NCBI GenBank assembly: GCA_963711565.1
Contig: CAVQEQ010000003.1
Span: 317,411-381,410 of the forward strand
Direction of reading: 5' to 3'
Length of the DNA stretch: 64,000 bases
Origin: an uncultured delta proteobacterium
GTDB taxonomy: Bacteria > Desulfobacterota > Binatia > Binatales > Binataceae
The translations under genes and the position numbers were made by a program. The notes under the pieces were generated by a model, which saw only the letters and a program-made list of their open reading frames with translations, ran no database searches and was not told the DNA's origin. The first letter of the stretch is position 1; the number at the start of each line of letters is the position of its first letter. Below are positions 3,179-59,555 of this stretch, one piece after another.

Positions 3179-3650
3179 TCAGCGCGAGGCGGACTGCGCG
3201 ACGGCCGTTGGCGGGAGCGAATATATCGGCGTGTACATCTGGTAGCACATCAGATACACGATCACGCCCGTCACTGACACGTACATCCACAGCGGCCAGG
3301 TCCATCGCGCGATTCGGCGATGGCTGCGGAATTTGCCGCGGAACGCGAGCACAATCGTCGCGATCGCGAGCGGTACGATCACGCCGGCGAGGATTACGTG
3401 CGGGATAAGAATCGAGAAGTACAGCGAGCGGACCCATCCTTCGCCGCTGAAGCGCACGTTGCCGACGTTGTAGTGATAGACGAGGTATGACGTTAGGAAG
3501 ACGGCGGAGAACCCCATCGCGGCGATCATGCAGGCGCGATGCGCCCGTACCATCCCGTTCTTGATGAAGATGAATCCCGCCAGCAGCAGGACCGTGGCGC
3601 ATCCGTTGAGGAATGCGTTCAGCGGCGCCAGCGAATGGTAAGAATCCAAT
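3179..3650 (-). CDS. DUF420-family membrane protein associated with the oxidase operon
   Basis: Four TM segments with conserved His residues. Last gene of the cox operon. A TTG start at 3650 is proposed because the ATG-extended ORF overlaps coxIV. Confidence 0.45.
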
Positions 3651-3665
3651 TGGATTCCCGGGCGT

Positions 3666-4088
3666 TCAGAGCTGCGGAATCGCCTGGTTATTCGGATTCG
3701 GCGTCTGCGGCGGCGGCGGCGCAACCGGATTCGCGCCCATCTCGGCGGGATTTGTCACCGGCCTTGGATGGTCGTAATGGGTCCACATCCGCGTCGTCAG
3801 ATCGGGCAGCAGCATGAAGCAGAGAAACGTGACCAGTATCACCGGGATTATCGCGATGATTGCGAGCGCCCTCTTTTCCATCGCGAGATGCATGAAGTAC
3901 ATCGCGACCAGCACGGCCTTCGCCCACGCCAGCGCGACCAGCAGACCGACCTTGGCGACCTGCGGCAGGCCCATCGCGTACACGCCCAGCTCGACGGCGG
4001 TCAGAATCGACAGATATATAAAAACCGCAATGTAGTTCGGCCCGCTATGTTCGATCGGATGCCCTGAAACCGCAGCTTGCGTCGTCAT
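3666..4088 (-). CDS. cytochrome c oxidase subunit IV (prokaryotic CoxD/CtaF family)
   Basis: About 140 aa, 3-4 TM helices, immediately downstream of coxC. Start taken at MTTQAAVSGHP. Confidence 0.65.
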   Translation of the reverse strand: MTTQAAVSGHPIEHSGPNYIAVFIYLSILTAVELGVYAMGLPQVAKVGLLVALAWAKAVLVAMYFMHLAMEKRALAIIAIIPVILVTFLCFMLLPDLTTRMWTHYDHPRPVTNPAEMGANPVAPPPPQTPNPNNQAIPQL

Positions 4089-4132
4089 TGTTCTAATTTC
4101 ATCTCCGCCAGTAATCGTTGGGAAGCTGCTGC

Positions 4133-4762
4133 CTAGATCAAATAGATGAACGTGAAGATCAGGATCCAAACCAGGTCGACGAAGTGCCAGTAGAGCCCCG
4201 CGATCTCGACCAGGTTCGCCTTGGCCGGCGTCAGCTTGCCGGTCATGCCACGAATCAACAGCACGCTGTTGTAGACGACGCCGCCGAAGACGTGGCAGCC
4301 GTGGAAGCCGGTCAGGATGAAAAACGTCGCGTCGAACAGGTCAACCTTGATCGACATCCCTTTCTCGCCGAGCAGGTGATGCCACTCGAACGCCTGCATC
4401 CCGAGGAACAGGAGTCCGCCGAGAACGGTCAGCGCCATGAAGTTGCGATAGCGCGCCATCCTGCCGGTTTGGATGGAGCCGAGCGCCTCGACCATCGTGA
4501 CGCTCGAGCAGATCAGGATGAACGTCATGATCGCGGTGGTAGTGATGCCTAGAAATGCGGCGGGCGACGGCCAATTGGGGTTGTCGATGCGCAGGGCGCC
4601 GTAGGCGGCGATGGCGGCGCCGAAGGTCATCGCGTCGCCGGCCAGGAACGACCACATCCCGAGCTTGCCGAGATTTCCCGGCGTAAGCGACGGTTCCAGC
4701 TGATCCTGAACCGCACCGTGATCGTGAGTATCTACTGCAGCAGCCTCGCTCATCGCGACCAT
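4133..4762 (-). CDS. coxC: cytochrome c oxidase subunit III
   Basis: Haem-copper oxidase subunit III fold (LGMWSFLAGDAMTFG...FHGCHVFGG). Confidence 0.9.
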   Translation of the reverse strand: MVAMSEAAAVDTHDHGAVQDQLEPSLTPGNLGKLGMWSFLAGDAMTFGAAIAAYGALRIDNPNWPSPAAFLGITTTAIMTFILICSSVTMVEALGSIQTGRMARYRNFMALTVLGGLLFLGMQAFEWHHLLGEKGMSIKVDLFDATFFILTGFHGCHVFGGVVYNSVLLIRGMTGKLTPAKANLVEIAGLYWHFVDLVWILIFTFIYLI

Positions 4763-4806
4763 CCTCTTTGGGGCAAATGGCTATAGTCAGTGTTCATTTG
4801 AAATGA

Positions 4807-5070
4807 CTATTTAGTAGTTGATTTACGATCCTGTCGTTGCGACCGCCGATAGACGAAGTAAGTAATGCCTCCGATCACCGCAAACGAGGCATACGGCGAC
4901 GCCACCATGAATAGCGCGCTGGTCTTATACGCCCGGAACGCCGGGCTGTCATCCGAGAGCCCGCAGGTCGCGCACGCGTTGGCCAGTCGCGGAGCGGCGG
5001 CAACAATCGCGCCGGCTATCATCGTCGCGGTTGCTTTGAGCCTTGCACCTTTCATCATCACGTTCTCCAT
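4807..5070 (-). CDS. hypothetical small exported/membrane protein with a CATCG motif, within the cox operon
   Basis: Signal-like N-terminus and a C-terminal TM helix. Start chosen at MENVMM to avoid overlap with the upstream gene. Confidence 0.4.
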   Translation of the reverse strand: MENVMMKGARLKATATMIAGAIVAAAPRLANACATCGLSDDSPAFRAYKTSALFMVASPYASFAVIGGITYFVYRRSQRQDRKSTTK

Positions 5071-5078
5071 CGGTGAAA

Positions 5079-5738
5079 CTACATCAGATATACCAGCCCG
5101 AACAGGACCGGCCAGACCGCGCACACGAAATACCAATAGACGGCGCACATCTCAATCGCGTGGGCGTTGCGAGCGTTGTATCTGCCGCGCATCGCAAGCC
5201 CCACGACGCATGCCAGCCAGATGACGCCGGCGGTCACGTGCGCGCCGTGGCATCCGATCAGCAAATAAAAAGTTCCGCCGTACGTACCGCTGGAAAGCTT
5301 GAGGCCGTGGGCGACGAGCCGTACCCATTCGCTGCCCTGCACCGCAAGAAACGTCACGCCCAGCGCGAGCGTCGCGAGCAGATAACGGCGGGTCAGGCGT
5401 TGGCGGCTCTTATGCACGGCGAGCAGCGCAAGCGTCATCGTGACGGCGCTCGACAGCAGCACGAAGGTGTTCACCCAGGTGACCTCAATCGGCAGGCGCG
5501 GCATCGCAGGCGGCGGCCAGAAGGGAGCCGAGAGGCGGTAGATCAGAAATGAGCCGATGAGGCCGCTGAACAGCATCATCTCGGATGCGATCAGCATCAG
5601 GATCGCTATCATCCCGCTGCTGATGAAGGGACGCTCGATTTGATCGCCGCTGGCGCCTGAGTCGGAAGAGCGACCGCGGCGAACCGGCGCCACCAACGGG
5701 CGAATTTTTGCAGTCGATGCTGTCACGCCGAACGCCAT
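5079..5738 (-). CDS. haem-copper oxidase subunit III family protein (second paralogue)
   Basis: Subunit III-like sequence (FHGAHVTAGVIWL, EMCAVYWYFV). Confidence 0.8.
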   Translation of the reverse strand: MAFGVTASTAKIRPLVAPVRRGRSSDSGASGDQIERPFISSGMIAILMLIASEMMLFSGLIGSFLIYRLSAPFWPPPAMPRLPIEVTWVNTFVLLSSAVTMTLALLAVHKSRQRLTRRYLLATLALGVTFLAVQGSEWVRLVAHGLKLSSGTYGGTFYLLIGCHGAHVTAGVIWLACVVGLAMRGRYNARNAHAIEMCAVYWYFVCAVWPVLFGLVYLM

Positions 5739-5739
5739 A

Positions 5740-5877
5740 TCAATGATGCTTCACTATGATCGTCACGACCGAGATTGCTACTAAGAAAACCATGATGCCG
5801 AGCAGTATCTTGAGTGTCCGCCAATTTTCCTCTTTGCGCTCTTCGCGCCTAACCAGGGTACTCATTCGATTACTCAT
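5740..5877 (-). CDS. unannotated 45-aa single-TM protein (MSNRMSTLVRREERKEENWRTLKILLGIMVFLVAISVVTIIVKHH)
   Basis: Verified reverse-complement translation. Its ATG overlaps the ctaB TGA (ATGA), and its stop lies 1 nt before the next start. Confidence 0.4.
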   Translation of the reverse strand: MSNRMSTLVRREERKEENWRTLKILLGIMVFLVAISVVTIIVKHH

Positions 5878-6779
5878 ACGCGATCCAGCACGAGTACTAA
5901 CAAGACGATCGGCAAATAGACTATCGACGCGAGCAACAACCGGCGCGCCGCTTTGGAATTGCCGGGCGCGCGTACCATCGCGACTCCAAATGCCAGCATC
6001 CAGATGCCAAGCGCCGATGCGATGACGACGTAAGGAATTCCAGTGAGGCCGAGCATCGTCGGGATGATTCCGACCGCGATGAGGCCGAGGCTGCCCACGA
6101 TGACGATTGGATTCGACGCGTTTCCGCCGCGCGAATTATTTTGCGGAAGCAGGTGGATGCCGGCGCGTTCGTAGTCGGTGCGATAAAGCCGCGCGACTGC
6201 CATCGTATGCGGCAACTGCCACAGGAACATGATCGCAAACAGGATAATCGGCTCCCAGCCCAGCCCGGCGTGCGCCGCTGCCCATCCCGCGACGGGAGGA
6301 AGCGCGCCCGGAACCGCGCCGACGATGTTGCACAGCCAGGTGTAGCGCTTCAGCGGCGTGTACACGCCGAGGTAAATGATCGTGATTGCGGCCGTCACCA
6401 CAGCGCAGAGCAAGTTCGTTGCGAGCGTCAAGTACATGAGGCCCGCCGCAGTCGCGACAACGCCAAACGTCAGCGCTTCGGCCGGGCGCATCCGCATGTC
6501 AGGCAGCGGGCGATTGCGGGTGCGATCCATCATCGCGTCGGTGTCGCGCTCGACGTACTGATTAAGCGCGAGCGTCCCGCCGGCCGCCAGCGCAGTGCCG
6601 GCGAGGAGATTCAGCGCGAGCGTCAGGTCGAAGCCGGAGCGTCCGCCGAGATAAAAACCGGCGAGCGTCGTGACCAGCACCATCAGCACGACGCGCGGCT
6701 TGGTCAGCTCGAAGTAATCGCTCACACGGCCGTGCGGCAGCGTCAATGCGGATTCCGCCATCGCGACTTTCGCGCTCAT
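5874..6779 (-). CDS. ctaB: protohaem IX farnesyltransferase (haem O synthase)
   Basis: UbiA-family CyoE/CtaB sequence. Start at MSAKVAMAES, overlapping the ctaA stop (ATGA). The upstream ORF extension is non-coding-like. Confidence 0.9.
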   Translation of the reverse strand: MSAKVAMAESALTLPHGRVSDYFELTKPRVVLMVLVTTLAGFYLGGRSGFDLTLALNLLAGTALAAGGTLALNQYVERDTDAMMDRTRNRPLPDMRMRPAEALTFGVVATAAGLMYLTLATNLLCAVVTAAITIIYLGVYTPLKRYTWLCNIVGAVPGALPPVAGWAAAHAGLGWEPIILFAIMFLWQLPHTMAVARLYRTDYERAGIHLLPQNNSRGGNASNPIVIVGSLGLIAVGIIPTMLGLTGIPYVVIASALGIWMLAFGVAMVRAPGNSKAARRLLLASIVYLPIVLLVLVLDRV

Positions 6780-7768
6780 GCGGTCACCTGCCGTTCGATC
6801 ACGCGCGAACTCGTGCGCGACTCGATCGCATGCGCGCGATTCGGCACGCCGAGAATATGATATGCGCGAAGCGTCAGCGTCAGGCTGGTCGCGAGGACCG
6901 CCGCGCCGACTGCAACGTGGCTCGTCGTCGGAATCACCATCCGGCCGCTCCAGATTGTGATCGCACCGAGACAAATCTGGACCACGAGCAGGATTAACAG
7001 CCCCAGTGCGGGACGGCGCAGCGCGACGACCTCGCGATGAGTCCGCAGCACGCGCGCGACCGTCCACAAAACCATTGCAGTGACGACAATCGCACCGCAT
7101 CGATGCGCAAAGTTAACCGCGATGTACTCGTTCCAGTACGGCGGAATTACGCGGCCGAACGAAAGCGGGAAATCGGGAATCACCAGCCCGGCGCTCATGT
7201 GACGCATCAGCGCGCCAACGAGAATCTGCATATAGATGATAGCGGTGGTCGCAACGGCGAGCGTCGGCAGCGAGATTCGCGAAGGTGGATCATCGACGTG
7301 CGGGGTCGAGTCCCAGCGCGGGTTCGTGAAGATGGCGATCGACACCATGAGGCAGAACAGCGCCTGCGCAGTGGCGGCGTGCGTAACCGCGATCGCCAGC
7401 GGCAATTCGAACAGCACGGTAATTCCGCCGAGGATGGCCTGCACGATGATTAGTCCGAACGCGAGCATGACAAGTCTGCGGACCCATCGCCGCGGCTCGG
7501 CGCGCCAGGCCCACGCCATCAACACGAGCGTGAGAATCACCACAGTTCCAGCAGCGAGGCGATGGCCGAATTCGAAACGGATACCGCCCTGCCAGGCCGG
7601 GATCAGTTTGCCGAACGCCAGCGGCCAGTCGGGGACGGCGAGCGCGGAACCGGTCGAAGTGACCAGGCCGCCGACGAAGATGAGGCAAAAGGTCGCGCCG
7701 GCGGTCAGCACCGCAAAGCGATGCAGTCCGCGCGCCTTCTCCACCTCAGTTGGCGACTGATTCGTCAC
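6776..7768 (-). CDS. ctaA: haem A synthase (COX15/CtaA)
   Basis: Eight-TM CtaA-like protein with conserved His pairs, sited between coxA and ctaB. Confidence 0.85.
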   Translation of the reverse strand: MTNQSPTEVEKARGLHRFAVLTAGATFCLIFVGGLVTSTGSALAVPDWPLAFGKLIPAWQGGIRFEFGHRLAAGTVVILTLVLMAWAWRAEPRRWVRRLVMLAFGLIIVQAILGGITVLFELPLAIAVTHAATAQALFCLMVSIAIFTNPRWDSTPHVDDPPSRISLPTLAVATTAIIYMQILVGALMRHMSAGLVIPDFPLSFGRVIPPYWNEYIAVNFAHRCGAIVVTAMVLWTVARVLRTHREVVALRRPALGLLILLVVQICLGAITIWSGRMVIPTTSHVAVGAAVLATSLTLTLRAYHILGVPNRAHAIESRTSSRVIERQVTA

Positions 7769-7783
7769 TGGCTATTCGACTGA

Positions 7784-9538
7784 CTAATCCGCCGCGGCCG
7801 TCGAGTGTTCGAGCAACTGCGATTGCGGCAGGTAGTCCTCCGCGACCTCCGGCGAGCTGTACTCGTACGGTCCGCGGTAAACGATCGGCACCGGGCCGGG
7901 CCAGTTGCCGTGCGGCGGCGGCGACGGCGTCGTCCACTCGAGCGTGTTTGCATGCCACGGATTCTCAGTGGCCTTCTCGCCCTTGTAATAGCTGTAGATG
8001 ATGTTCGCGAGGAACAAAAACTGCGCGGCGCCGAGCACGAAGGCGCTGATCGAAATGAATTCGTTGATCGGAATGATCGGCTTCAGGAAATCGTACTGCT
8101 GCGGATTGTAAATCCGGCGCATATGCCCGGCCATCCCCAGGATGTGCATCGGGAAGAAGGTGCAGTTGAAGGCGACGAAAGTGATCCAGAAGTGAACCTT
8201 GCCCAGCTTCTCGCTCATCATGTGGCCGAACATCTTGGGATACCAATAGGTAACTCCCGCAAAAATCCCGAACAGGCTACCGCCGAATAGTACGTAGTGA
8301 ATATGTGCGACGATGAAGTAAGTATCGTGGATGTACATATCGACCGGTGTCGACGCCATCCAGATTCCCGAGAGTCCGCCAATGACGAACATCGCGACGA
8401 AGGCAAGCGCGTTCATCATCGCGGTCGTATAGTGGATGTTGCCCTTGTACAGGGTGCCCAGCCAGTTGAAGGTCTTAATCGCCGAGGGCACTCCGATGAT
8501 CATTGTCGTGATCATGAAGCTGCTGCCGAGCGCCGGGTCCATACCGGACTGGAACATGTGATGGCCCCAGACGACCCACGACAGGAATGCGATCGCGATC
8601 ATCGCGTAGGCCATCGCGCGGTATCCGAAGATCGGCTTGCGCGAGAATACCGAGATGATCTCGGAGGAGATGCCCATCGCGGGCAGGATCATGATGTAGA
8701 CCTCGGGATGGCCGAAGAACCAGAACAGATGCTGCCACAGCAGCGGCTCGCCGCCGCCGGCAGGCAGAAAGAAATGCGTGCCGCCCATGCGATCGAACAG
8801 CAACAGCGCGAGCGCCGTCGTCAGCACCGGCAGCGCGAGCAGCAGCAGAATCGCGGTGATGAACAGCGACCAGATCACCAGCGGCAGGCGGAAGAAGTAC
8901 ATCCCCTTGGTGCGCATGTTGATGATCGTCGTGATGTAGTTGATCGAGCCCATCAGCGACGACGCGCCGAGCACGATAATGCTGATGCACCATAAGTCCT
9001 GGCCCCAATCGACGCCGGTATATATCGGCACGGCGCTCAGGGGCGCATACGAGGTCCAGCCCGCGGCGGCGGGACCGCCAGTGACGAAGAACGACGACAG
9101 CATGATCACGCCGGCGACCGCACCGACCCAGAACGACAGCATGTTCAGCTTGGGGAACGCCATGTCGCGCGCGCCGATCATCAACGGGATGAGGAAATTG
9201 CCGAAGCATCCGACCAAGATAGGCATCACCACGAAGAAGATCATGATGGTGGCGTGCATCGTAAACATCGCGTTGTAGGTGTTTGGCGGGATCGCGCCGT
9301 CGTACATGAACGGCTCGGGCACCCAGTGAAATCCGGGGACCGCGGTCTCGGGAAACGCGAGTTCCCACCGCATCAGCATCGCCATCAGGCCGCCGATCGA
9401 CATCATGAACAGCGCCATGAAGAGGAACTGGCGCCCGATCATCTTGTGATCTTCGGAAAATATGTAGGTGCGTATGAATCCGAGCTCGTGATGCTCGGCG
9501 TGCGCCCCGTGTGCCGCAACCGCTGCCGTACTACTCAT
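7784..9538 (-). CDS. ctaD: cytochrome c oxidase subunit I
   Basis: Canonical CoxI sequence (WFFGHPEVYI, HHMF). Confidence 0.95.
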   Translation of the reverse strand: MSSTAAVAAHGAHAEHHELGFIRTYIFSEDHKMIGRQFLFMALFMMSIGGLMAMLMRWELAFPETAVPGFHWVPEPFMYDGAIPPNTYNAMFTMHATIMIFFVVMPILVGCFGNFLIPLMIGARDMAFPKLNMLSFWVGAVAGVIMLSSFFVTGGPAAAGWTSYAPLSAVPIYTGVDWGQDLWCISIIVLGASSLMGSINYITTIINMRTKGMYFFRLPLVIWSLFITAILLLLALPVLTTALALLLFDRMGGTHFFLPAGGGEPLLWQHLFWFFGHPEVYIMILPAMGISSEIISVFSRKPIFGYRAMAYAMIAIAFLSWVVWGHHMFQSGMDPALGSSFMITTMIIGVPSAIKTFNWLGTLYKGNIHYTTAMMNALAFVAMFVIGGLSGIWMASTPVDMYIHDTYFIVAHIHYVLFGGSLFGIFAGVTYWYPKMFGHMMSEKLGKVHFWITFVAFNCTFFPMHILGMAGHMRRIYNPQQYDFLKPIIPINEFISISAFVLGAAQFLFLANIIYSYYKGEKATENPWHANTLEWTTPSPPPHGNWPGPVPIVYRGPYEYSSPEVAEDYLPQSQLLEHSTAAAD

Positions 9539-9583
9539 TTTCGACTGGCTCCTCCGTGGGACAGTGGCCGGCGAATGCGGGCG

Positions 9584-10252
9584 TTACTTGTTCTGGTCGT
9601 ATTGCTCTTTGATCCACTTGTCGTAATCCTCTTGCGACTGCACCGTCAGGTTGCCCTTCATCCCCGAATGTCCGAAGCCGCACAACTCCGCGCACGGAAT
9701 TTCGTATTGCCCGGTTTCGGTCGCCTCGAACCAGACGTGAATGATGCGTCCCGGGACCGCGTCCTGCTTAAGGCGCATGTTCGGGACGAAAAAACTGTGG
9801 ATGACGTCCTTCGAGGTCAGATCGATCCGCACGACCTTGTTCACCGGCACGTGCAACTCGTTCTCGACCATCAGGTCGTCCTTGGTGCCGAACTTGCCGT
9901 CGGGTCCGGGGTACGTGATTTCCCAATTGAACTGCTTTCCTGTCACCTGGTAGAACACGTCGCCCGGCGGCCCATGCTCCTTGATGTCGGCCCAGGTCGA
10001 GCGGCTCATGATCGCCAGCGTGATCAGGATAACCGTGGTCGCCGTGGTCCAGATGATCTCGAGGCGCGAATTGCCTTCGATATACTCCGCCTTGCGGCCG
10101 GGCCGGGTGCGATAGCGAATCATGAAGGTCACCATCGTGATCATCACGAGAACCCAGACGACCATCACGATCCAGAAGATCAACTCGAACAGAAAGTCGA
10201 TCTGGGGGCCGAAGGTCGAGATGTCGTGCGGAAAATACAGATGCTCGAGCAT
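9584..10252 (-). CDS. coxB: cytochrome c oxidase subunit II (no fused cytochrome c domain)
   Basis: CuA site CAELCGFGHSGM and two N-terminal TM helices. Confidence 0.95.
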   Translation of the reverse strand: MLEHLYFPHDISTFGPQIDFLFELIFWIVMVVWVLVMITMVTFMIRYRTRPGRKAEYIEGNSRLEIIWTTATTVILITLAIMSRSTWADIKEHGPPGDVFYQVTGKQFNWEITYPGPDGKFGTKDDLMVENELHVPVNKVVRIDLTSKDVIHSFFVPNMRLKQDAVPGRIIHVWFEATETGQYEIPCAELCGFGHSGMKGNLTVQSQEDYDKWIKEQYDQNK

Positions 10253-36349: not shown

Positions 36350-36364
36350 TTTACGCAGTCTCGC

Positions 36365-37780: not shown

Positions 37781-37947
37781 CGTCTAAACCGACCAGTCAG
37801 TCTGGAATGAAATAAATTTACGCGGCGAGCATCGAAGAAGCAAGGGAATCCCCTACCCTCTAAATCGCGAGCGGCAGATCTAATCTTGCGGAGAAGACGC
37901 GTGCTCATCTATACCCGTAGCTGAAGTCATCGCAGGAGTATCGAAAC

Positions 37948-39905: not shown

Positions 39906-39947
39906 CGTTTGAGAAAAAGACGGGGCCGGATTGCTCCAGCCCCGCAC

Positions 39948-40005: not shown

Positions 40006-40716
40006 CTAGCCCTTGGGCTTCAGCGAGAAATTCGCCGTAGTCGCCGCGCCGTCCTTCACATTAACTTTCTGAGTGTCAACACCAAGCTTCTCCTGCCACA
40101 CTTCGAGCGTGTAGTCGCCAGGCGGCACGCCCGCGATCGAGAAGTTGCCCTTGTCGTCCGTCACCGCGAAGTATGGAGTGTCGGTCGCGACCCACCATCC
40201 GTGCATCCAGGCGTGCGCATCGCAAGTGACCTTGATCACTTCCGGCTGATCGATTTTTTCCTCGATCACTTTCTTGAACTTGGGCTGCGCCATGTTGAAC
40301 GACGGATTCTTTTCCGAATAGGTGTGGATGTTGTGCAGAATCCCGTCGTCGTTCACGATTTTCACGGTGCTGCCGGCCGGGAACGCGAGCACATGCGGCA
40401 CGTAGTCGCATCCTTTTTGATCGAAGGTTACGTCGCCGGGCTTCATGTCGCCCTTGGCACCTTTCACAACCACGACGGCGTTCGCGATTCCGCCGCTGCT
40501 GTCAACGATGAGATCTTCCGTGAAGTGCGGATGGAGTCCGCAGACTTCCTTGTCCTTGGTCACTTCGACCGGCTTGGGTGCCGGCGCCGTGCCGTCGTAC
40601 TTGACGGTTCCGCTAATCGTGCCGCCGGCTGCGCTCGCGATGCCGGCGCCGACGCTCATGCTGAGCGCGACTCCAGCGCACGCCGCCAGTACAACTGCAT
40701 ACTTTTTCATTACCAT
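40006..40716 (-). CDS. cupredoxin-like (amicyanin-type C-x2-H-x2-M) copper protein with a C-terminal carboxypeptidase-regulatory-like domain
   Basis: Signal peptide. HNIH ... CDAHAWM forms a type-1 Cu ligand set. Last gene of the bc module. Confidence 0.55.
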   Translation of the reverse strand: MVMKKYAVVLAACAGVALSMSVGAGIASAAGGTISGTVKYDGTAPAPKPVEVTKDKEVCGLHPHFTEDLIVDSSGGIANAVVVVKGAKGDMKPGDVTFDQKGCDYVPHVLAFPAGSTVKIVNDDGILHNIHTYSEKNPSFNMAQPKFKKVIEEKIDQPEVIKVTCDAHAWMHGWWVATDTPYFAVTDDKGNFSIAGVPPGDYTLEVWQEKLGVDTQKVNVKDGAATTANFSLKPKG

Positions 40717-40817
40717 TGCCTCCTGGGAAATTACCCGGATAGTTCTACTCAGTCTTAAACAAAAACTCACTTTAGCGAATACTCAGTTGCCAACTCAATC
40801 AACTGGACGATCATAAC

Positions 40818-43607
40818 CTACTTCTTACTCACTTTCGTCGGTGCCTTCTCCGCCTTACTCACTTTTGCCGGCACCGCGGCCACCTGGCCCGGCAGCGTCT
40901 GTCCCGGATGAGTTCCGAACCAGAAAATATAGTCGCGCAGCGCACGGATTTGATCGTCCTGGTTGCCGCCCAGGATGTCGTCGGGACCCCCCGGATAGAA
41001 TGAAGGCATGTGGGTCCCGGGCTGAATCGCCGACGGATTTGCGATCCACTTCAGTATCCAGTCGGGATTCAAGCGCTGATGCGCCAGCGCCAAATCAGGC
41101 GCCCATCCCGATTCCGGCCCTTCGGGCTTCTTGTCGCCCTGCTGATGGCAGCTGAAGCAGTTGAAGTAATCCTTGGTCATCAGCTTGGCGCCCGCCTGCA
41201 ACTCGGCCGGCGGAATCAGGTCGGTGTTGATGAACATGAAGGGCACGTTGATGTCCGACATGGCCGTGAAGTAGTTCACGATGGTGTCGTCTTCGCTGTT
41301 GGTGAAATGGAAGGTCGGCATCCTGATTTTCAGCCACGGACGAATCGGGGTCGGGCCCTGCAGGAATGTGAATAGCCACTGGGGCTGAACCTTGAAGCCC
41401 TCGCCATTGAGTATTGGCGGCGCGAAGTTGATTTCGTCTTCTGAGTAGAAGCGCCGGATGTAGCCGCCGCGATTGTCGATGATGTGGCAGCCGACGCAGT
41501 TGTAGTAATTGACCATTCGCCGGCCCGCGACGATTTCTGTCTGATGCTCCGAGCCGGGCATCCGGTAGCGCTCCTGCACCTTGCCGTCGGTCATGCCGGC
41601 CAGGAACACGACCAGGTTGTTGATGTCGGCGTCGTCGAAATCGAAATTCGGCATCAACTGCTCGACGTCCTTGGTCTGGTAGATGCGCGGCGTCTGCAGT
41701 TTGTGGAACGTCCATTGATCCCAGGTCTCGGGAATCTGGGTCTGGTTGCCGAAAAACAATTCGTCGAGATGCTTGCTGCCGAACACCGTCAGCTCGACAC
41801 CGATGCGCGACTCCTTGTCCATCCCCTCGATCTCGTGGCAGCCGAAGCATCCGTACTTGCGCACGAGCGCTTCGCCCTTCTGGATATTCGCGGGATCCTT
41901 GAGCGCGGTTTCGACGCCGGGGTCTTCTTTCTTCTCGCCATGCGTCATCAGGAACGCGGTCAGCGCCTCGGCCTCGTGATCGCTCAGGCGCAATGACGGC
42001 ATCGCGGTGTGCGGCGAGAAGTCGCGCGGATTTTTCAGCCAGGTGTAAATCCATGCCGCCGAAGTCTTCTCCGCGATCTTGTCCAGGTTCGGCGCGAAGT
42101 CCTTGGTCGTGCGCGCCTCGGCCGGCTTGAAGCCCTCGGCGACGCCGACCGGCGTTCCATAATTATCAGGATCGATCGCGTGGCATCCTTTGCAGCCGAC
42201 CGATTCGAACAGCCCCTTGCCCTCTTCGACGAACGCCGGATTCTTGATGTCGGCCTCGAGCGTCGGCAGTTCCGGATGCGCCGCGAGCCAGTCTTTCGAG
42301 TTCTTCGCCGAGCTGTCCAGGATGAAGGCGGCCAGCTCCGTCGCCTGTTCGGTCGAGAACATGAAATTCGGCATGCGTGTATGCGGCCGGAAGACGTGCG
42401 GATCGGTGATCCAGCGCACGGTCCACGACGGGTCGAGCTTGGCCGACGCCAGTTTCAGGTACGGGCCGATCTTCGGCATCTCCTCGTAGCCCGCGACGAG
42501 ATGGCATCCCGCGCATCCCATCTGCTGGAACATGCGCTCGCCGTCAACCCAGTTGGCCGCGATTGGCTTACCCGCAGCGTCGTGCAGCGAGCCGACGTTG
42601 ATGTGGCACTTGATGCATCGCGATTGCATCTTGTCGCCGCGTAGCATCGGCGAGTCCCAATCCTTGTCATCGCCATGCGCGAGCCGCACCGAGCTGACCG
42701 CGGGCCCCTGGCCGTCGTGACAGGGAGTGCAGCCGAGTTTGTCGGGCGGATGCTTGCCGATGATTTGATCGAAATTGCTATGCGTGCGAAACGGCTGGGG
42801 CGCGTTCTCGAAGCCCTTCTTGTCGGCGCCCATGTGGCAGCTCTGGCATCGATCGACCCGCGCAATCGCCTCGTCGAAGGCGTTGCGGTCGAAGTCGTCG
42901 ATCGCGGTCTGCTGAATCTTGGGAATTTTCGGATAGCGGAAGAGGATGGTGTTGCGGAATTTGACCGGGATCATCCACGAGTCGGCCTTGTCGAAAAAGT
43001 CGTCGCGCTTCGCGGTCAGTTTCTTCAGCTGGTCGGTCAGGCTGTCGACTTTCGAATTCAGCGCCGCGATCTGATCCTTGACTGCCTGCAGATCTGCCTT
43101 GGCCTTGTCGGAGTCGATATTTTCCTGCGCGAGTTCCGCGTCGAGCCTGTCGATATCCTGTTTGAACGGAGTCGGATCCTGCTTGTACTGAATGGCGTGA
43201 TTGTAGTCGTACCATCGCTCGGTCAGATACGACTTGGTGAACCGCACCAGTTGATCCTTGTCGTTGTAGGTGTTGTTCAGACCGACCAGCTGCGCCTTCA
43301 AGTCATCCAGCTTGGCCGCGGTCGCACCCGAATCGAGATCCTTCTGCGCCTCGGCCAGGTCCTTCGATGCTTTCTGATAGGTCGGATCGGCGTTGAGACG
43401 CGCCTGTTCGTCGGCCGCGTCCTTCATGTACTTGTCGTACGCGATGTGATCCCACTCGACCTGGTATTGCTTCCATGGCCGGCGCGAGATGTTGTCGTCC
43501 CAGATCGACCAGACCGCGCTGACCAGCAGCACCGCTACCAGCAGCACGAACAACGCGCTGTATGACTTCCCTTCTTCGGTGGGATCAAGCCCCGGTCTGC
43601 CAGCCAT
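40818..43607 (-). CDS. membrane-anchored octahaem c-type cytochrome with a long N-terminal coiled coil
   Basis: Eight CxxCH motifs (CQSCH, CTPCH, CIKCH, CAGCH, CKGCH, CFGCH, CVGCH, CFSCH). Five are followed by ...MP.F Met-ligand motifs. Confidence 0.85.
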   Translation of the reverse strand: MAGRPGLDPTEEGKSYSALFVLLVAVLLVSAVWSIWDDNISRRPWKQYQVEWDHIAYDKYMKDAADEQARLNADPTYQKASKDLAEAQKDLDSGATAAKLDDLKAQLVGLNNTYNDKDQLVRFTKSYLTERWYDYNHAIQYKQDPTPFKQDIDRLDAELAQENIDSDKAKADLQAVKDQIAALNSKVDSLTDQLKKLTAKRDDFFDKADSWMIPVKFRNTILFRYPKIPKIQQTAIDDFDRNAFDEAIARVDRCQSCHMGADKKGFENAPQPFRTHSNFDQIIGKHPPDKLGCTPCHDGQGPAVSSVRLAHGDDKDWDSPMLRGDKMQSRCIKCHINVGSLHDAAGKPIAANWVDGERMFQQMGCAGCHLVAGYEEMPKIGPYLKLASAKLDPSWTVRWITDPHVFRPHTRMPNFMFSTEQATELAAFILDSSAKNSKDWLAAHPELPTLEADIKNPAFVEEGKGLFESVGCKGCHAIDPDNYGTPVGVAEGFKPAEARTTKDFAPNLDKIAEKTSAAWIYTWLKNPRDFSPHTAMPSLRLSDHEAEALTAFLMTHGEKKEDPGVETALKDPANIQKGEALVRKYGCFGCHEIEGMDKESRIGVELTVFGSKHLDELFFGNQTQIPETWDQWTFHKLQTPRIYQTKDVEQLMPNFDFDDADINNLVVFLAGMTDGKVQERYRMPGSEHQTEIVAGRRMVNYYNCVGCHIIDNRGGYIRRFYSEDEINFAPPILNGEGFKVQPQWLFTFLQGPTPIRPWLKIRMPTFHFTNSEDDTIVNYFTAMSDINVPFMFINTDLIPPAELQAGAKLMTKDYFNCFSCHQQGDKKPEGPESGWAPDLALAHQRLNPDWILKWIANPSAIQPGTHMPSFYPGGPDDILGGNQDDQIRALRDYIFWFGTHPGQTLPGQVAAVPAKVSKAEKAPTKVSKK

Positions 43608-43678
43608 CTGCTCTACCTGTCCTCAAATGCCGCCGCGCGGCCACCGTCCAAATACTCAGTCGAATAGTCAGTCGTCAT

Positions 43679-43855
43679 TTACCCGCGCGAAACCCACACA
43701 CCCTCGATGATGTAGCCGGCCAGAAAAACCAGGATGCCGATCCCGGTGAACTTGTATTCGTTGCCCATCCCGTGCGTCTGCGTGATTCCCACGTAGAGCG
43801 CGAACCCGACGTCGGCGAGGCCGAGCGCCTGCAATACTTTGGCGAGGATGAACAC
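43679..43855 (-). CDS. putative small two-TM subunit (GTG start), in frame with the upstream SUIV-like gene after its TGA
   Basis: Verified translation VFILAKVLQALGLADVGFALYVGITQTHGMGNEYKFTGIGILVFLAGYIIEGVWVSRG*. The ORF-track 43675-43872 product is Ser/Arg-rich junk in another frame. Confidence 0.3.
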   Translation of the reverse strand: MFILAKVLQALGLADVGFALYVGITQTHGMGNEYKFTGIGILVFLAGYIIEGVWVSRG

Positions 43856-43873
43856 GGAGTCGTCGCGGCCACG

Positions 43874-44776
43874 TCAGATGTTAATCCAGGGCGTGACCAG
43901 GATGTACTTGATGTTGAGCGCGTGCCGCAGCGCCATCTTGATGAACACGCCGGCCATCGCGATCAGCAGAAATCCTGTGATGCCGAAGCGCACCGGTCCC
44001 CACTTCTGCAAAATTTCGGGACCGCCACCGGGGAACGCGGACCACGGATCGCCCGCGGGCCGCGATCGTATCCAGAAATACAAAGCCGCGTAGCCGACCA
44101 CGAAATAGCCGACTATCAGAAACAGCCCGAACAGAGCAGACGCCAGGTAGTCGCGGAAGCCGAACATGTACGGCAAATCGACGTTGGTCAGCGCCTCGAC
44201 CAGATGAGGATCCCAGACCTGGCCGGGCCAGAACCAGTTCCAGCCGGGACCGCGGAAAAACGTGCCGATGATAATGAACGAGACCCACAAGATGTGGAAC
44301 CCGACGAAGAAAGCCATAATCTCGAAAAATCGCTCCTTCAGGGTGTAGTAGCCGTTACCCTTCGGATTGATGTCGAGAAACGGGATCAGCATCAGGCCCA
44401 CGATGATGAAGCTCGGCAGCACCACGCCCGCATACCAGGGATCGAAGAACACCAGCATTTCCTGCAGGCCCAGGAAGTACCATGGCGCCTTTGACGGGTT
44501 GGGCGTCCGGGTAGGATTCGACGGCTGTTCAAGTGGCGCGTTGAGCAGCAGCGACCACACCGTCAAGACGATGATGACCAGGATCGACATCAGGAATTCG
44601 TTGCGCACCAGGAACGGCCAGGTGTGCAGTTTCTCCTCGACGCCGCTGCCCGCCTTCTTGATCGGGACTTCGATTCGCTTGCCGCCCGCCGCGGGCGGAG
44701 TCCGCGACGCGGCCCCTGCGCCAGCGCCCGCCGCGCGCATCACGATGCCGCCTTCGTTACCTTCCGGGCTTGCCAT
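43874..44776 (-). CDS. cytochrome b C-terminal domain protein (b6f subunit IV-like) with extra TM helices
   Basis: PWYFLGLQE motif. Confidence 0.85.
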   Translation of the reverse strand: MASPEGNEGGIVMRAAGAGAGAASRTPPAAGGKRIEVPIKKAGSGVEEKLHTWPFLVRNEFLMSILVIIVLTVWSLLLNAPLEQPSNPTRTPNPSKAPWYFLGLQEMLVFFDPWYAGVVLPSFIIVGLMLIPFLDINPKGNGYYTLKERFFEIMAFFVGFHILWVSFIIIGTFFRGPGWNWFWPGQVWDPHLVEALTNVDLPYMFGFRDYLASALFGLFLIVGYFVVGYAALYFWIRSRPAGDPWSAFPGGGPEILQKWGPVRFGITGFLLIAMAGVFIKMALRHALNIKYILVTPWINI

Positions 44777-44950
44777 GATTAATCCCTTAGTGAGGCGCTC
44801 CGTCGTCGTCAGTCCACGGCGGCGGCGCCGCCAGCCGGTACATTATATACAGCAGGATCGACATTGCGATCGGCACCGACAGCACCCGCACGATTCCCTG
44901 GTGCAAAAACCACGAAAATACGTCTCCCATCCCGCAGCCTCAGTCCAGTC

Positions 44951-45724
44951 CTAGAGCGGCCCCGACATGCCGTCGCGGCGGATTCGCCAGAAGTGCACCG
45001 CCATGAAGATGCTCGCGATCAACGGAAAAAATATGCAGTGCAAAATGTAGAAGCGCAGCAGCGTATGCGGTCCGATCTCCGCGCCGCCGAAAATGAACGC
45101 GCGCGCGTCGTAAACCGGATTCACGCCGAGCACTTCGTGGAACGGGCCGCCATGCCCAAGCAGCGGCGTCGCGCGCGCCATGTTCGATCCGACCGTCACC
45201 GCCCAGATCGAAAGTTGATCCCACGGCAGCAGGTAACCGGTGAACGACAGCAGCAGCGTCAGCACCAGCAGGATTACGCCGACCACCCAGTTGAATTCGC
45301 GCGGCGGTTTGTAGGAGCCCGTCATGAACACGCGGAACATATGCAGCCACACCGCGATCACCATCCCGTGCGCGGCCCATCGATGCATGTTGCGCATCAG
45401 CATCCCGAACGGCATGTCAAACTCGAGATACTTCATGTCGGCGTAGGCGTACTCCGCCGTCGGTCGATAGTAGAACATCAGGTAAACGCCGGTGATGACG
45501 GTCACGAGGAAAAGCAGGAACGTGATACCACCCATGCACCAGGTGAAGCGCAGGCGCACCGTATGCTTCTGCACCTTCGACGGATGCAAATGCAGGAAGA
45601 CGTTGCCGGAGACCATGAGGATCCGGTTGCGCGGCGTGTCTTCGTAGCCGTGCCTGAAGATCGACTGCCAGGCCTGCGAGTCGGTTATCTGGCGCTTGGT
45701 TTCGTTCCAGTCAAACTTTGCCAT
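44951..45724 (-). CDS. cytochrome b6-like N-terminal domain protein
   Basis: Four-TM bis-His haem b ligands (HLHP ... HGMVIAVWLH ... HFWRIR). Confidence 0.9.
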   Translation of the reverse strand: MAKFDWNETKRQITDSQAWQSIFRHGYEDTPRNRILMVSGNVFLHLHPSKVQKHTVRLRFTWCMGGITFLLFLVTVITGVYLMFYYRPTAEYAYADMKYLEFDMPFGMLMRNMHRWAAHGMVIAVWLHMFRVFMTGSYKPPREFNWVVGVILLVLTLLLSFTGYLLPWDQLSIWAVTVGSNMARATPLLGHGGPFHEVLGVNPVYDARAFIFGGAEIGPHTLLRFYILHCIFFPLIASIFMAVHFWRIRRDGMSGPL

Positions 45725-46039
45725 CCGCTACCACCCGAAACTTCATGGAGCCGCCCGCGCGGGCGCTCACAGCATTCTCTCTCAATGCAAATACCGCGAA
45801 AGAGTAAAAAATTCCAACGCTTGCGACTCGATCCTCGCGGTCCTGCTCGAAATCCGGCGTAAGGCTACCTAATTTTGCCCGCTCTCTGCAACAAAAAAGA
45901 GTCATTGAACCGGGATTTTTTGCGATACGCTCGCACGCCGGAAAGCGAGCAGTCCCGGCAGGAGAAAAGTGAAACCGCCGCCCCGATTGAATCGGGCCGG
46001 CGGTTTTCTTCATCACGTGAGCCTCGGCGTCCGCTCAAA

Positions 46040-59094: not shown

Positions 59095-59162
59095 CGTTCT
59101 CTTCCTATCGATTTCGTCTCGATTGTTGAACGCGGCGCGGCCTCAGCGAGCCGGGCAGCCGT

Positions 59163-59555
59163 TTATGACTTCGGCTTGCTGGTGTCGCGGCGGAAGCGGC
59201 TGAAGAACATCACGATCACGCCCCACAGCACCATCAGCAGTGCGATCCCGATCACGCCGAGACCGACGCCTGCCAGGATTCCCGTCGCGCATAGGACAGC
59301 GCCGATCACGAACAGCGGGATTGCGAATGCGATCGGATTGAACGGATCGTTGCGCGCCGCCCGCTCGACCATCGCCGCCGCCTGCTCGGACGTGCCCGCA
59401 TCCTCGTTGCTCTCCTTGAGCAGGCTCACCGCGTAGTCGGTGAGTTCCTGCCGATTGGGCATCGCGCGCAGACGGTCGGCGAGCTCTTTGGCAAGCTCCT
59501 CGACGCGTTCGTCGTTGGACTGGGACTCAGAGTCGGGTTTGTTGGATTCAGCCAC
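59163..59555 (-). CDS. hypothetical membrane protein
   Basis: Acidic N-terminus and two C-terminal TM helices. Confidence 0.5.
   Translation of the reverse strand: MAESNKPDSESQSNDERVEELAKELADRLRAMPNRQELTDYAVSLLKESNEDAGTSEQAAAMVERAARNDPFNPIAFAIPLFVIGAVLCATGILAGVGLGVIGIALLMVLWGVIVMFFSRFRRDTSKPKS

What the first reader, a model, noticed from the sequence alone, without database searches (positions are those of the whole stretch)
40006..45724. Rieske-less bc-type module: split cytochrome b, coiled-coil octahaem cytochrome c and an amicyanin-like cupredoxin
The order is b6-like N-domain, SUIV-like C-domain, a 929-aa cytochrome and a cupredoxin. The 929-aa cytochrome has a TM anchor, a ~160-aa coiled coil, a trihaem cluster and five class-I-like c domains with Met ligands.

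No Rieske iron-sulfur gene is adjacent. A non-coding 315 bp lies upstream of the b gene.

The architecture is that of Firmicute or Planctomycete-type b6c complexes with an expanded multihaem c subunit. The attached cupredoxin suggests a dedicated wire to the aa3 oxidase encoded 30 kb away.
Basis: partly seen in the sequence, partly recalled or inferred. Interest (0 to 1): 0.55.

Follow-up and report, generated by a model that had tools for sequence, protein, structure and literature searches.

The report
Cytochrome b6-type respiratory complex, Rieske elsewhere
The genes are real, but this is not a Rieske-less complex: it belongs to a widespread, uncharacterised kind of respiratory cytochrome b complex with an eight-haem cytochrome and a blue-copper protein, and in this bacterial family (Candidatus Binataceae) the Rieske iron-sulfur gene has moved to another place in the genome.

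Summary
On the minus strand lie a b6-like cytochrome b, a 5-helix subunit-IV-like protein, a 929-aa membrane-anchored octahaem cytochrome c and a type-1 copper cupredoxin. No Rieske gene occurs in the 64-kb window.

The reading as a Rieske-less complex does not hold. The organism is a Candidatus Binataceae bacterium. The same operon occurs in other Binatia and in about a dozen phyla. In 70 of 80 loci fetched with a Rieske query, a Rieske gene sits directly upstream of cytochrome b.

Binataceae keep an orthologous 203-aa Rieske protein at a separate, syntenic locus. In one relative both loci map to a contig of the same length (247,200 bp). Cytochrome b is 90% identical to Rieske-linked relatives and the Qo motif (APWY) is unchanged.

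The link to the aa3 oxidase is supported. In one sister Binatia lineage the oxidase operon follows the cupredoxin gene directly, and in another only its haem A and copper assembly genes do. The window's COX2 has a CuA site and no fused cytochrome.

Most likely this is a menaquinol-oxidising Rieske/b6-type complex that feeds the aa3 oxidase. It is an uncharacterised variant of a known kind, of moderate interest.

The parts
45725..46039 (-). Non-coding region upstream of cytochrome b. The ~190 nt nearest the gene are the conserved promoter/leader. The distal part is the junction with a 13.4-kb inserted block.
   Evidence: No ORF here. The proximal part aligns with L002, L003 and L098. There is no Rfam match, no remnant of a Rieske gene by tblastn, and no unusual RNA fold (z=-0.17).
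44951..45724 (-). Cytochrome b6-like subunit: four-helix N-terminal half of cytochrome b, with ligands for haems bL and bH and a CxGG cysteine for haem cn.
   Evidence: PF00033 E=3.6e-44. Match to PDB cytochrome b6 at E=1e-49, with Cys63 aligned to the haem-cn cysteine. Hx13H and Hx14H spacings. 90% identical to the cytochrome b of Rieske-linked operons L006/L007.
44787..44930 (-). Small 47-aa ORF with one transmembrane helix; probable small subunit.
   Evidence: Called at the same position in most Binataceae loci read (L001, L003-L005, L010, L012, L098, L099; not called in L002) and in L006. 42-83% identical within Binataceae. Coordinates.
43874..44776 (-). Subunit-IV-like C-terminal half of cytochrome b, with five transmembrane helices and the Qo motif APWY.
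   Evidence: PF00032 E=1.3e-6. Five predicted transmembrane helices. The stretch 'PSKAPWYFLGLQEMLVFFDPW' is invariant in Binataceae and in Rieske-linked relatives. Weak match to b6f subunit IV, with APWY aligned to PEWY.
43679..43855 (-). Small 58-aa ORF (GTG start) with two hydrophobic segments; probable small subunit.
   Evidence: Present between the subunit-IV-like gene and the cytochrome c gene in all loci read, 53-60 aa long. 45-47% identical to L006/L007. Coordinates.
40818..43607 (-). Membrane-anchored octahaem cytochrome c. It consists of a transmembrane helix, a ~165-aa long-helix (coiled-coil-like) region, a trihaem bis-His cluster and five class-I His/Met domains. It takes the place of cytochrome c1 or f.
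   Evidence: Eight CxxCH motifs. The haem motifs, three distal His and five Met-Pro are invariant. Pfam Cytochrom_C and Cytochrome_CBB3. AlphaFold2 model. Eight CxxCH are kept in 56 of 59 orthologous ORFs from many phyla.
40006..40710 (-). Secreted type-1 copper cupredoxin (amicyanin-like ligand loop). The cupredoxin domain lies between the N-terminal strands and the C-terminal part of a CarboxypepD_reg/transthyretin-like beta-sandwich.
   Evidence: H126, N127, C163, H166 and M169 are invariant in 31 orthologues. Profile matches in the PDB: blue copper protein 5fc9 (E=2.4e-8), the cupredoxin domain of nitrite reductase (4e-7) and amicyanin (5e-5). The C-terminus matches NOMO/CarboxypepD_reg domains. 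N-terminal signal peptide.
39911..39945 (-). Intrinsic terminator ending the transcription unit.
   Evidence: An 11-bp stem with 8 G-C pairs followed by a U tract. The region folds far better than shuffled sequence (z=-3.3).
59178..59555 (-). 126-aa membrane protein. It is the orthologue of the gene that opens the operon (just before the Rieske gene) in other Binatia. Here a 13.4-kb insertion separates it from cytochrome b.
   Evidence: tblastn: 90-92% identical to the gene ~200 nt upstream of cytochrome b in L002/L003, and 31-33% identical to the gene preceding Rieske in L006/L007. No Pfam match.
3179..10252 (-). aa3-type cytochrome oxidase cluster (COX2, COX1, CtaA, CtaB, two COX3-like genes, DUF420); the probable electron sink of the complex.
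   Evidence: Pfam hits. COX2 has a full CuA motif and no fused cytochrome c. The same gene order follows the cupredoxin gene directly in L006.

Best explanation
The region encodes all but one subunit of a b6-type Rieske/cytochrome b complex. It belongs to the group whose quinol-oxidation (Qo) motif reads APWY.

The membrane core is a four-helix cytochrome b (haems bL and bH, and probably a covalently bound haem cn), a five-helix subunit-IV-like protein that carries the Qo site, and two small membrane proteins. The place of cytochrome c1 or f is taken by a membrane-anchored octahaem cytochrome c with three bis-His and five His/Met haems. A secreted type-1 copper cupredoxin is co-transcribed as the last gene.

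The Rieske iron-sulfur subunit is encoded elsewhere. In Binataceae its gene left the operon and sits as a single gene between a beta-propeller gene and an alpha/beta-hydrolase gene.

Inferred mechanism: menaquinol is oxidised at the Qo site. One electron goes through the Rieske cluster into the octahaem wire, then, directly or via the cupredoxin, to the CuA site of the aa3 oxidase. The other electron goes through the b haems to the Qi site, as in a Q cycle.

Shown here: gene content, cofactor-binding motifs, orthology, the separate Rieske locus, and synteny with the oxidase in relatives. Inferred: subunit assembly, direction of electron flow, and the carrier role of the cupredoxin.
For: 1. Identity of the subunits and cofactor motifs.
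2. Lineage: the homologues are named Candidatus Binataceae or Binatia.
3. In non-Binataceae Binatia the operon reads: small membrane protein, Rieske, cytochrome b, small ORF, subunit-IV-like, small ORF, ~900-aa octahaem cytochrome, cupredoxin.
4. A Rieske-based scan of species genomes returned 80 loci from about a dozen phyla. In 70 of them cytochrome b lies directly downstream. The octahaem count is kept in 56 of 59 ORFs.
5. All ten Binataceae operon loci read lack an adjacent Rieske gene. Five of them (L002, L003, L012; also the window and L001 by tblastn) keep the upstream membrane-protein gene.
6. Ten syntenic loci carry a stand-alone 203-aa Rieske gene with CTHLGC and CPCHGSGY boxes and a transmembrane anchor. 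Two are titled Candidatus Binataceae. The protein is 66-69% identical to the operon-linked Rieske, and no cytochrome b lies within 6 kb.
7. Public sources name members of this group 'ubiquinol-cytochrome c reductase iron-sulfur subunit [Candidatus Binatus soli]' and '[Candidatus Binataceae bacterium]'.
8. Rieske protein P0368 and octahaem cytochrome P0021 both have a longest contig of exactly 247,200 bp.
9. Cytochrome b is 90% identical between Binataceae and Rieske-linked relatives, and the Qo segment is invariant. This implies an unchanged Qo/Rieske interface.
10. Murphy et al. 2021 report that Binatales encode the iron-sulfur protein and cytochrome b but no cytochrome c1, and that all genomes can make menaquinone (PMC8262859 Text S1).
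11. Link to the oxidase: the COX2/COX1/CtaA/CtaB/COX3 operon follows the cupredoxin gene in L006, and CtaA/CtaB/SCO1 follow it in L007. The window's COX2 has a CuA site and no cytochrome domain.
Against: - The Rieske gene of the very genome that holds this window was not seen. The evidence is at family level, plus one match of contig lengths.
- No experiment exists on any member of this family. Kao and Hunte stated in 2014 that no APWY-type complex had been characterised.
- Those authors suggested that APWY complexes may run in reverse.
- Oxidase synteny is seen in only 2 of 5 non-Binataceae Binatia loci read with 10-kb flanks. In the window the oxidase is 30 kb away, with unrelated genes in between.
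- The cupredoxin fold could not be confirmed by structure prediction (pLDDT 32.5).
Confidence: 0.8

Rival explanations
1. One reading: in Binataceae the module works without a Rieske protein. The octahaem cytochrome takes electrons directly from the Qo site, without bifurcation. The stand-alone Rieske protein serves something else.
For: The Rieske gene is absent from the operon in all ten Binataceae operon loci read and from the whole 64-kb window. No remnant is left between the upstream membrane-protein gene and cytochrome b.
Against: - An orthologous, intact Rieske gene under clear conservation (81-91% identity across ten syntenic loci) persists in the family.
- Its nearest relatives outside the family are the operon-linked Rieske proteins.
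- Cytochrome b and the Qo segment show no relaxation.
- The octahaem cytochrome has the same haem count and ligands as in Rieske-linked operons.
- Murphy et al. found only one iron-sulfur protein and cytochrome b set in Binatales.
Confidence: 0.07
2. The complex, Rieske included, runs mainly in reverse or as an electron entry point. Electrons from high-potential periplasmic donors (for example dehydrogenases that reduce a cupredoxin, as methylamine dehydrogenase reduces amicyanin) would enter through the cupredoxin and octahaem chain. They would be pushed to menaquinone at the expense of proton-motive force.
For: - Kao and Hunte 2014 proposed reverse operation for APWY-type complexes and predicted mid-to-high potential Rieske clusters for them.
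- The Binataceae Rieske has the S...Y high-potential signature CPCHGSGY, while the organisms make low-potential menaquinone.
- The ligand loop is amicyanin-like.
- Binatota are predicted methylotrophs.
Against: - Synteny with the aa3 oxidase and its assembly genes in relatives points to forward flow to oxygen.
- The operon is conserved in many phyla that are not methylotrophs.
- No dehydrogenase gene is linked in any locus read.
Confidence: 0.1

Closest known systems
Cytochrome b6f complex (cyanobacteria, chloroplasts)
   Same: - Split cytochrome b: a four-helix b6 (best PDB match, E=1e-49) plus subunit IV.
- 14-residue spacing of the helix-D histidines, and the cysteine that binds haem cn.
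- Small one-helix subunits.
- The Rieske gene is unlinked from the b6 and subunit IV genes, as with petCA and petBD (my knowledge).
- A cupredoxin (plastocyanin) can act as electron acceptor.
   Different: - Subunit IV has five helices rather than three.
- The Qo motif is APWY rather than PEWY.
- Cytochrome f is replaced by an unrelated 929-aa octahaem cytochrome c.
- The context is respiratory and menaquinone-based.
- The cupredoxin is fused into a transthyretin-like sandwich and encoded in the operon.
Anammox Rieske/cytochrome b complexes Kustd1480-1485 and Kuste4569-4574 (Kuenenia stuttgartiensis)
   Same: - A b6-like four-helix cytochrome b.
- A subunit-IV-like protein with five helices.
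- A hexa- or octahaem cytochrome c in place of cytochrome f. [quoted passage not shown]
   Different: - There is no NAD(P) oxidoreductase subunit and no HAO-like octahaem protein in this operon.
- A cupredoxin gene is present instead.
- Here the link is to an aa3 oxidase.
- Sequence relatedness of the cytochromes c was not tested.
APWY clade of cytochrome b (Kao and Hunte 2014, PMC4122944)
   Same: The Qo motif is APWY. The partner Rieske has the S...Y signature predicted to give a mid-to-high potential. The distribution is scattered across phyla.
   Different: Placement in that clade rests on the motif only, and no tree was built here. Binatia, Bacteroidota, Ignavibacteriota and Poribacteria are not in the paper's text list of APWY-clade taxa. 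The octahaem and cupredoxin partners were not among the passages retrieved, though I did not search that paper for them.
Geobacter ExtP/ExtQ/ExtS (NCBIfam 'selenite/tellurite reduction operon' cytochromes)
   Same: These are the best NCBIfam matches: ExtP at E=2e-81 for cytochrome b, ExtQ for the subunit-IV-like protein, and ExtS for part of the cytochrome c.
   Different: All scores fall below the curated cut-offs (272.7 against 290; 54.7 against 150; 60.8 against 100). ExtS is a 262-position lipoprotein model, not a 929-aa octahaem protein.
Amicyanin and other small blue copper proteins
   Same: His, Cys, His and Met ligands with C-x2-H-x2-M spacing. The profile matches amicyanin, pseudoazurin, plastocyanin and the Nitrosopumilus blue copper protein 5fc9.
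   Different: The cupredoxin domain sits between the two parts of a CarboxypepD_reg-like beta-sandwich. The gene lies in a bc-complex operon, not in a methylamine dehydrogenase cluster.

Membership tests
Rieske/cytochrome b complex, b6 type | Four-helix cytochrome b with two histidine pairs (helix B Hx13H, helix D Hx14H) | tested here: met
   H114-x13-H128 and H229-x14-H244. PF00033 at E=3.6e-44. Cytochrome b6 of b6f is the best solved match.
Rieske/cytochrome b complex, b6 type | Separate subunit-IV-like protein carrying the Qo motif (P/A)xWY | tested here: met
   PF00032 hit. APWY at residue 97 aligns to PEWY of b6f subunit IV.
Rieske/cytochrome b complex, b6 type | CxGG cysteine for covalent haem cn | tested here: met
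   C63-M-G-G aligns with the FYCLGG cysteine of spinach b6. Binding of the haem itself cannot be tested with these tools.
Rieske/cytochrome b complex, b6 type | A Rieske 2Fe-2S subunit encoded by the organism | tested here: met
   The gene is not in the window. It is present as a stand-alone orthologue in Binataceae genomes, including Candidatus Binatus soli. It shares a contig length of 247,200 bp with a Rieske-less operon in one relative. The genome of this exact window could not be searched.
Rieske/cytochrome b complex, b6 type | Physical assembly of Rieske, cytochrome b and cytochrome c, and bifurcated quinol oxidation | not testable with these tools
   This needs purification, EPR and kinetics, or at least a multimer structure model.
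APWY clade of cytochrome b (Kao and Hunte 2014) | Qo motif APWY | tested here: met
   The motif is invariant in six sequences compared.
APWY clade of cytochrome b (Kao and Hunte 2014) | Phylogenetic placement within that clade | not tested
   No tree was built with the paper's reference sequences.
Type-1 copper cupredoxin (amicyanin-like) | His, Cys, His and Met copper ligands with the Cys-His-Met loop near the C-terminus of the domain | tested here: met
   H126, C163, H166 and M169, plus N127, are invariant in 31 orthologues from many phyla.
Type-1 copper cupredoxin (amicyanin-like) | Sequence-profile similarity to solved cupredoxins | tested here: met
   5fc9 at E=2.4e-8, 9cck at 4e-7, amicyanins at 5e-5 to 3e-4, pseudoazurin at 3e-3.
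Type-1 copper cupredoxin (amicyanin-like) | Predicted Greek-key beta-sandwich fold | tested here: inconclusive
   The single-sequence AlphaFold2 model has pLDDT 32.5.
NCBIfam ExtP/ExtQ/ExtS equivalogs | Score at or above the curated cut-off | tested here: not met
   272.7 against 290, 54.7 against 150 and 60.8 against 100 bits.
Anammox-type Rieske/b complex with NAD(P) oxidoreductase | b6-like cytochrome b, five-helix subunit IV, multihaem cytochrome c with long helices | tested here: met
   compared with the description in PMC12954380.
Anammox-type Rieske/b complex with NAD(P) oxidoreductase | NAD(P) oxidoreductase subunit in the operon | tested here: not met
   No such gene occurs in the window's operon or in any related locus read.
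Firmicute b6c complex (QcrABC) | Cytochrome c domain fused to subunit IV (my knowledge of Bacillus QcrC) | tested here: not met
   The subunit-IV-like protein has no CxxCH motif. The cytochrome c is a separate 929-aa gene.

The most novel reading that the evidence does not exclude
The whole family is a distinct type of complex III that nobody has studied. Its parts are Rieske, b6-like cytochrome b, a five-helix subunit IV, two small subunits, an octahaem cytochrome with a coiled-coil arm, and a copper subunit. It may be built as a fixed wire into an aa3 oxidase supercomplex.

In Binataceae, uncoupling the Rieske gene from the operon could allow the cytochrome b and octahaem module to assemble with or without Rieske. 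That would let it switch between bifurcating (Q-cycle) and non-bifurcating or reverse electron flow.
Probability: 0.12. Interest if true: 0.65.

Novelty: new variant of a known kind. Interest (0 to 1): 0.38.

Why it matters
Complex III is the textbook site of the Q cycle, yet only the bc1, b6f and actinobacterial forms have been studied in depth.

This operon type is present in soil-dominant Binatia and in Bacteroidota, Ignavibacteriota, Acidobacteriota, Poribacteria, Nitrospinota and other phyla. The cupredoxin family alone has about 850 representatives at 50% identity with E at or below 1e-30.

It replaces cytochrome c1 or f with an eight-haem wire and adds a copper protein. No member has been purified. 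A structure would show three things. First, how a Rieske cluster hands electrons to a multihaem chain. Second, what the long helical arm does. Third, whether a high-potential Rieske can work with menaquinol.

For genome annotation there is a practical lesson. Absence of an adjacent Rieske gene does not make a cytochrome b complex Rieske-less.

Tried and rejected
- Motif scan and tblastn for a Rieske gene or pseudogene in the window, and in the spacer between the upstream membrane-protein gene and cytochrome b: nothing found.
- Rfam search and RNA folding of the 315-bp upstream region: no family matched and the fold is not special. The promoter scan found no convincing sigma-70 site on the coding strand.
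- Single-sequence AlphaFold2 of the cupredoxin: unusable, pLDDT 32.5.
- Foldseek of the cytochrome model against the PDB: only generic coiled-coil matches with E above 0.1. No solved structure shares the overall architecture.
- The first Rieske protein search listed only the top 120 hits, all 70% identical or more. It could not reach Binataceae. Two candidates at 70-71% identity (P0200, P0206) turned out to be operon-linked Rieske proteins of other Binatia.
- Literature searches for Binatia with Rieske, and for APWY, gave no paper beyond Murphy 2021 and Kao and Hunte 2014. The Dibrova 2017 text has no passage on multihaem or cupredoxin partners.
- I considered and dropped the idea that shared proximity to the EF-P gene shows which block moved. 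Gene orientation and neighbours differ.
- NCBIfam Ext equivalogs were rejected because scores fall below the cut-offs.
Full report
**What is in the sequence**

Four large ORFs lie head to tail on the minus strand between 45724 and 40006.

The first (44951-45724, 257 aa) is a cytochrome b N-terminal domain.
- It matches PF00033 at E=3.6e-44.
- It is closer to cytochrome b6 of b6f complexes (E=1e-49) than to bc1 cytochrome b (E=1e-26).
- It has the two histidine pairs with b6-type spacing, H114-x13-H128 and H229-x14-H244.
- It has a C63-M-G-G motif that aligns with the cysteine binding haem cn in b6.

The second (43874-44776, 300 aa) is subunit-IV-like.
- It matches PF00032 and has five predicted transmembrane helices.
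- Its quinol-oxidation (Qo) motif reads APWY.

The third (40818-43607, 929 aa) is an octahaem cytochrome c.
- It has one N-terminal transmembrane helix and exactly eight CxxCH motifs.
- Across 39 homologues all eight motifs are invariant. So are three further histidines (276, 286, 311) and five Met-Pro pairs placed 47-65 residues after haem motifs four to eight.
- This is the pattern expected for three bis-His haems followed by five class-I His/Met domains.
- The alignment-based AlphaFold2 model (mean pLDDT 68.7) shows long helices over residues 44-209 at pLDDT 75-88. The class-I domains are modelled reasonably. The trihaem part is modelled poorly, as expected without haems.

The fourth (40006-40710, 234 aa) has a signal peptide and a C-terminal CarboxypepD_reg-type domain.
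- An alignment of 31 orthologues from many phyla shows H126, N127, C163, H166 and M169 invariant.
- A profile of that alignment matches solved blue copper proteins over exactly this stretch. The hits are 5fc9 (E=2.4e-8), a nitrite-reductase cupredoxin domain (4e-7), amicyanins (5e-5 and weaker), pseudoazurin and plastocyanin.
- The C-x2-H-x2-M ligand spacing is that of amicyanin.

Three items were missed.
- Two small membrane ORFs lie at 44787-44930 (47 aa) and 43679-43855 (58 aa). Gene callers find them at the same positions in the related loci, the 47-aa one in most and the 58-aa one in all. The second is 45-47% identical to distant relatives.
- A strong intrinsic terminator lies just after the cupredoxin gene. 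It delimits the transcription unit.
- The orthologue of the operon's first gene lies 13.4 kb upstream, as described under rearrangements below.

**Whose genome, and what the relatives look like**

The octahaem cytochrome has hundreds of homologues. Those at 66-91% identity are named Candidatus Binataceae. A second group at 50-53% is named Candidatus Binatia or Deltaproteobacteria.

All ten Binataceae operon loci read (L001-L005, L010, L012, L098-L100) end with SUIV-like gene, small ORF, octahaem cytochrome and cupredoxin. The nine that reach far enough upstream also have cytochrome b, and eight of those have the 47-50-aa ORF called after it. The nine that extend past the cupredoxin gene have a glyoxalase-like gene next. 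None has a Rieske gene.

In the 50-53% group the operon begins with a 111-119-aa membrane protein and a 197-201-aa Rieske protein directly upstream of cytochrome b.

A scan of one genome per species with a Rieske alignment returned 80 loci. They come from Binatia, Bacteroidota, Ignavibacteriota, Chlorobi-like MAGs, Acidobacteriota, Poribacteria, Nitrospinota, Latescibacterota, Zixibacteria, Myxococcota, Spirochaetia and others.
- In 70 of the 80 loci, cytochrome b, the subunit-IV-like gene and a ~900-aa cytochrome follow the Rieske gene. Often the cupredoxin gene follows too.
- In 56 of 59 recovered cytochrome ORFs the count of eight CxxCH is kept.

This is a widespread, conserved operon type, and a Rieske gene is normally part of it.

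**Where the Rieske gene went in Binataceae**

Seven of the 80 loci (L020-L026) carry a Rieske gene 66-69% identical to the operon-linked one, with no cytochrome b within 6 kb. Two of them are titled Candidatus Binataceae bacterium.

The gene in L021 encodes a complete 203-aa protein. It has a twin-arginine-like signal, a membrane anchor and the boxes CTHLGC and CPCHGSGY.

Its neighbourhood is the same in ten loci: a beta-propeller gene on the other strand, a small ORF, Rieske, then an alpha/beta hydrolase. The Rieske protein is 81-91% identical among them.

A protein search with it recovers a large group. One 90%-identity cluster has 750 members. Members are named 'Rieske 2Fe-2S domain-containing protein [Candidatus Binataceae bacterium]' and 'ubiquinol-cytochrome c reductase iron-sulfur subunit [Candidatus Binatus soli]'. 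Beyond that group, the next-best hits are the operon-linked Rieske proteins of other Binatia.

Member P0368 has a longest contig of 247,200 bp. That is exactly the length of JGI contig Ga0455671_0000087, which carries a Rieske-less operon with cytochrome P0021. The two genes therefore almost certainly share one contig.

Two further results fit.
- Murphy et al. reported that Binatales encode the iron-sulfur protein and cytochrome b but no cytochrome c1.
- Cytochrome b of the window is 90% identical to that of the Rieske-linked operons, and the Qo segment is invariant. The site where the Rieske head docks has not drifted.

I conclude that the Rieske gene was relocated at the base of Binataceae, not lost. 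This gene arrangement recalls the petCA and petBD split of cyanobacteria (my knowledge).

**Other rearrangements at this locus**

The gene that opens the operon elsewhere survives in Binataceae. In L002, L003 and L012 it lies about 200 nt upstream of cytochrome b.

In the window it is at 59178-59555. The 13.4 kb in between hold sedolisin-type protease and Ig-repeat surface protein genes and a LuxR-type regulator.

The ~190 nt next to cytochrome b are conserved among close relatives, so the insertion lies upstream of the promoter/leader. It contains no Rieske remnant, no Rfam family and no special fold.

**Link to the oxidase**

In L006 the COX2, COX1, CtaA, CtaB, COX3 and SCO1 genes start 84 nt after the cupredoxin gene. 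In L007, CtaA, CtaB and SCO1 follow it.

The window holds the same oxidase cluster in the same order and orientation at 3179-10252. About 30 kb of unrelated genes separate it from the operon.

The window's COX2 has a complete CuA motif and no fused cytochrome c, so it needs an external donor. Whether the last class-I haem domain or the cupredoxin makes the final contact is not known.

**Mechanism**

The best-supported reading is a Q-cycle complex.
- Menaquinol binds at the Qo site formed by cytochrome b and the subunit-IV-like protein. Binatota can make menaquinone.
- The first electron goes to the Rieske cluster, then along the trihaem cluster and the five class-I haems. It then reaches CuA of the aa3 oxidase, directly or through the cupredoxin.
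- The second electron crosses the membrane through haems bL, bH and probably cn.

The long helices after the membrane anchor may wrap around the complex. This was modelled for the large multihaem subunit Kustd1485 of an anammox Rieske/b complex, which also has a b6-like cytochrome b and a five-helix subunit IV.

Only the gene content, motifs and synteny are shown here. Assembly and direction of electron flow are inferred.

The main alternative is reverse or input operation, proposed for APWY-type complexes by Kao and Hunte. The high-potential S...Y Rieske signature in a menaquinone organism fits it. The oxidase synteny argues against it as the main role.

**Comparison with known systems, and novelty**

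By sequence the core is b6f-like. By architecture it is closest to the anammox complexes, but it lacks their NAD(P) oxidoreductase. By Qo motif it fits the uncharacterised APWY clade.

It falls below the cut-offs of the Geobacter ExtP/Q/S models. Unlike the Firmicute b6c complex, its cytochrome c is not fused to subunit IV.

I found no paper that describes this exact composition. The cupredoxin family is nevertheless large: 848 representatives at E of 1e-30 or better.

I therefore rate it a new variant of a known kind and of moderate interest. The Rieske-less claim that made the finding stand out is not supported.

Noticed in passing
window 45725-59177: A 13.4-kb block sits between the operon's original first gene (59178-59555) and cytochrome b. 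It holds two sedolisin/pro-kumamolisin-type protease or Ig-repeat surface proteins, further Ig-like repeat proteins and a LuxR-type regulator. L002, L003 and L012 lack it although L002 and L003 have an identical cytochrome b, so it is a strain-variable island.
   Followed up: partly
window 35717-39540: A cassette of a TetR regulator, a cytochrome P450 and a carboxylesterase lies between the glyoxalase-like gene and an acyltransferase gene. It is present in L001, L004 and L005 and absent in L002 and L003. This is a second variable insertion beside the operon.
   Followed up: no
window 39549-39947: A glyoxalase/VOC-family gene follows the cupredoxin gene in all nine Binataceae loci that extend past the cupredoxin gene but not in other Binatia. 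It lies beyond the terminator, and its annotated GTG start overlaps the terminator hairpin. The real start is probably further downstream (118 aa in relatives).
   Followed up: partly
window 3179-10252: The aa3 oxidase cluster has two separate COX3-like genes (4133-4762 and 5079-5738), plus CtaA, CtaB and DUF420. The order is the same as in L006. The CtaA (6776-7768) and CtaB (5874-7100) ORFs overlap as listed, so one start is probably called too far upstream.
   Followed up: no
L038 5230-6456: In a MAG labelled Chloroflexota the cupredoxin gene lies directly upstream of the Rieske gene, and no cytochrome b follows within 6 kb. This is another rearranged version of the operon. L034 (Binatia) and L084 (Methylomirabilota) also show a Rieske gene without an adjacent cytochrome b.
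   Followed up: no
L068, L071-L073, L075-L079, L081-L083, L093 (Poribacteria): In Poribacteria, tblastn similarity to the window's cytochrome begins only about 1.1 kb after the subunit-IV-like gene, although the ORF itself starts within a few hundred bases. The first CxxCH sits earlier in the protein (residue ~185). The N-terminal region of the cytochrome has apparently diverged.
   Followed up: no
P0399: A 6305-aa protein matches the cupredoxin/beta-sandwich query in 48 separate stretches. Several proteins of 2-3 thousand residues do likewise. They are giant repeat proteins built from the CarboxypepD_reg-like part.
   Followed up: no
L021 5357-5791; L096 7399-7818; L101 2310-2822: A small secreted protein gene (139-170 aa, proline- and alanine-rich C-terminus) always precedes the stand-alone Rieske gene in Binataceae. 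It is unrelated to the membrane protein that precedes Rieske in other Binatia. Its function is unknown.
   Followed up: partly
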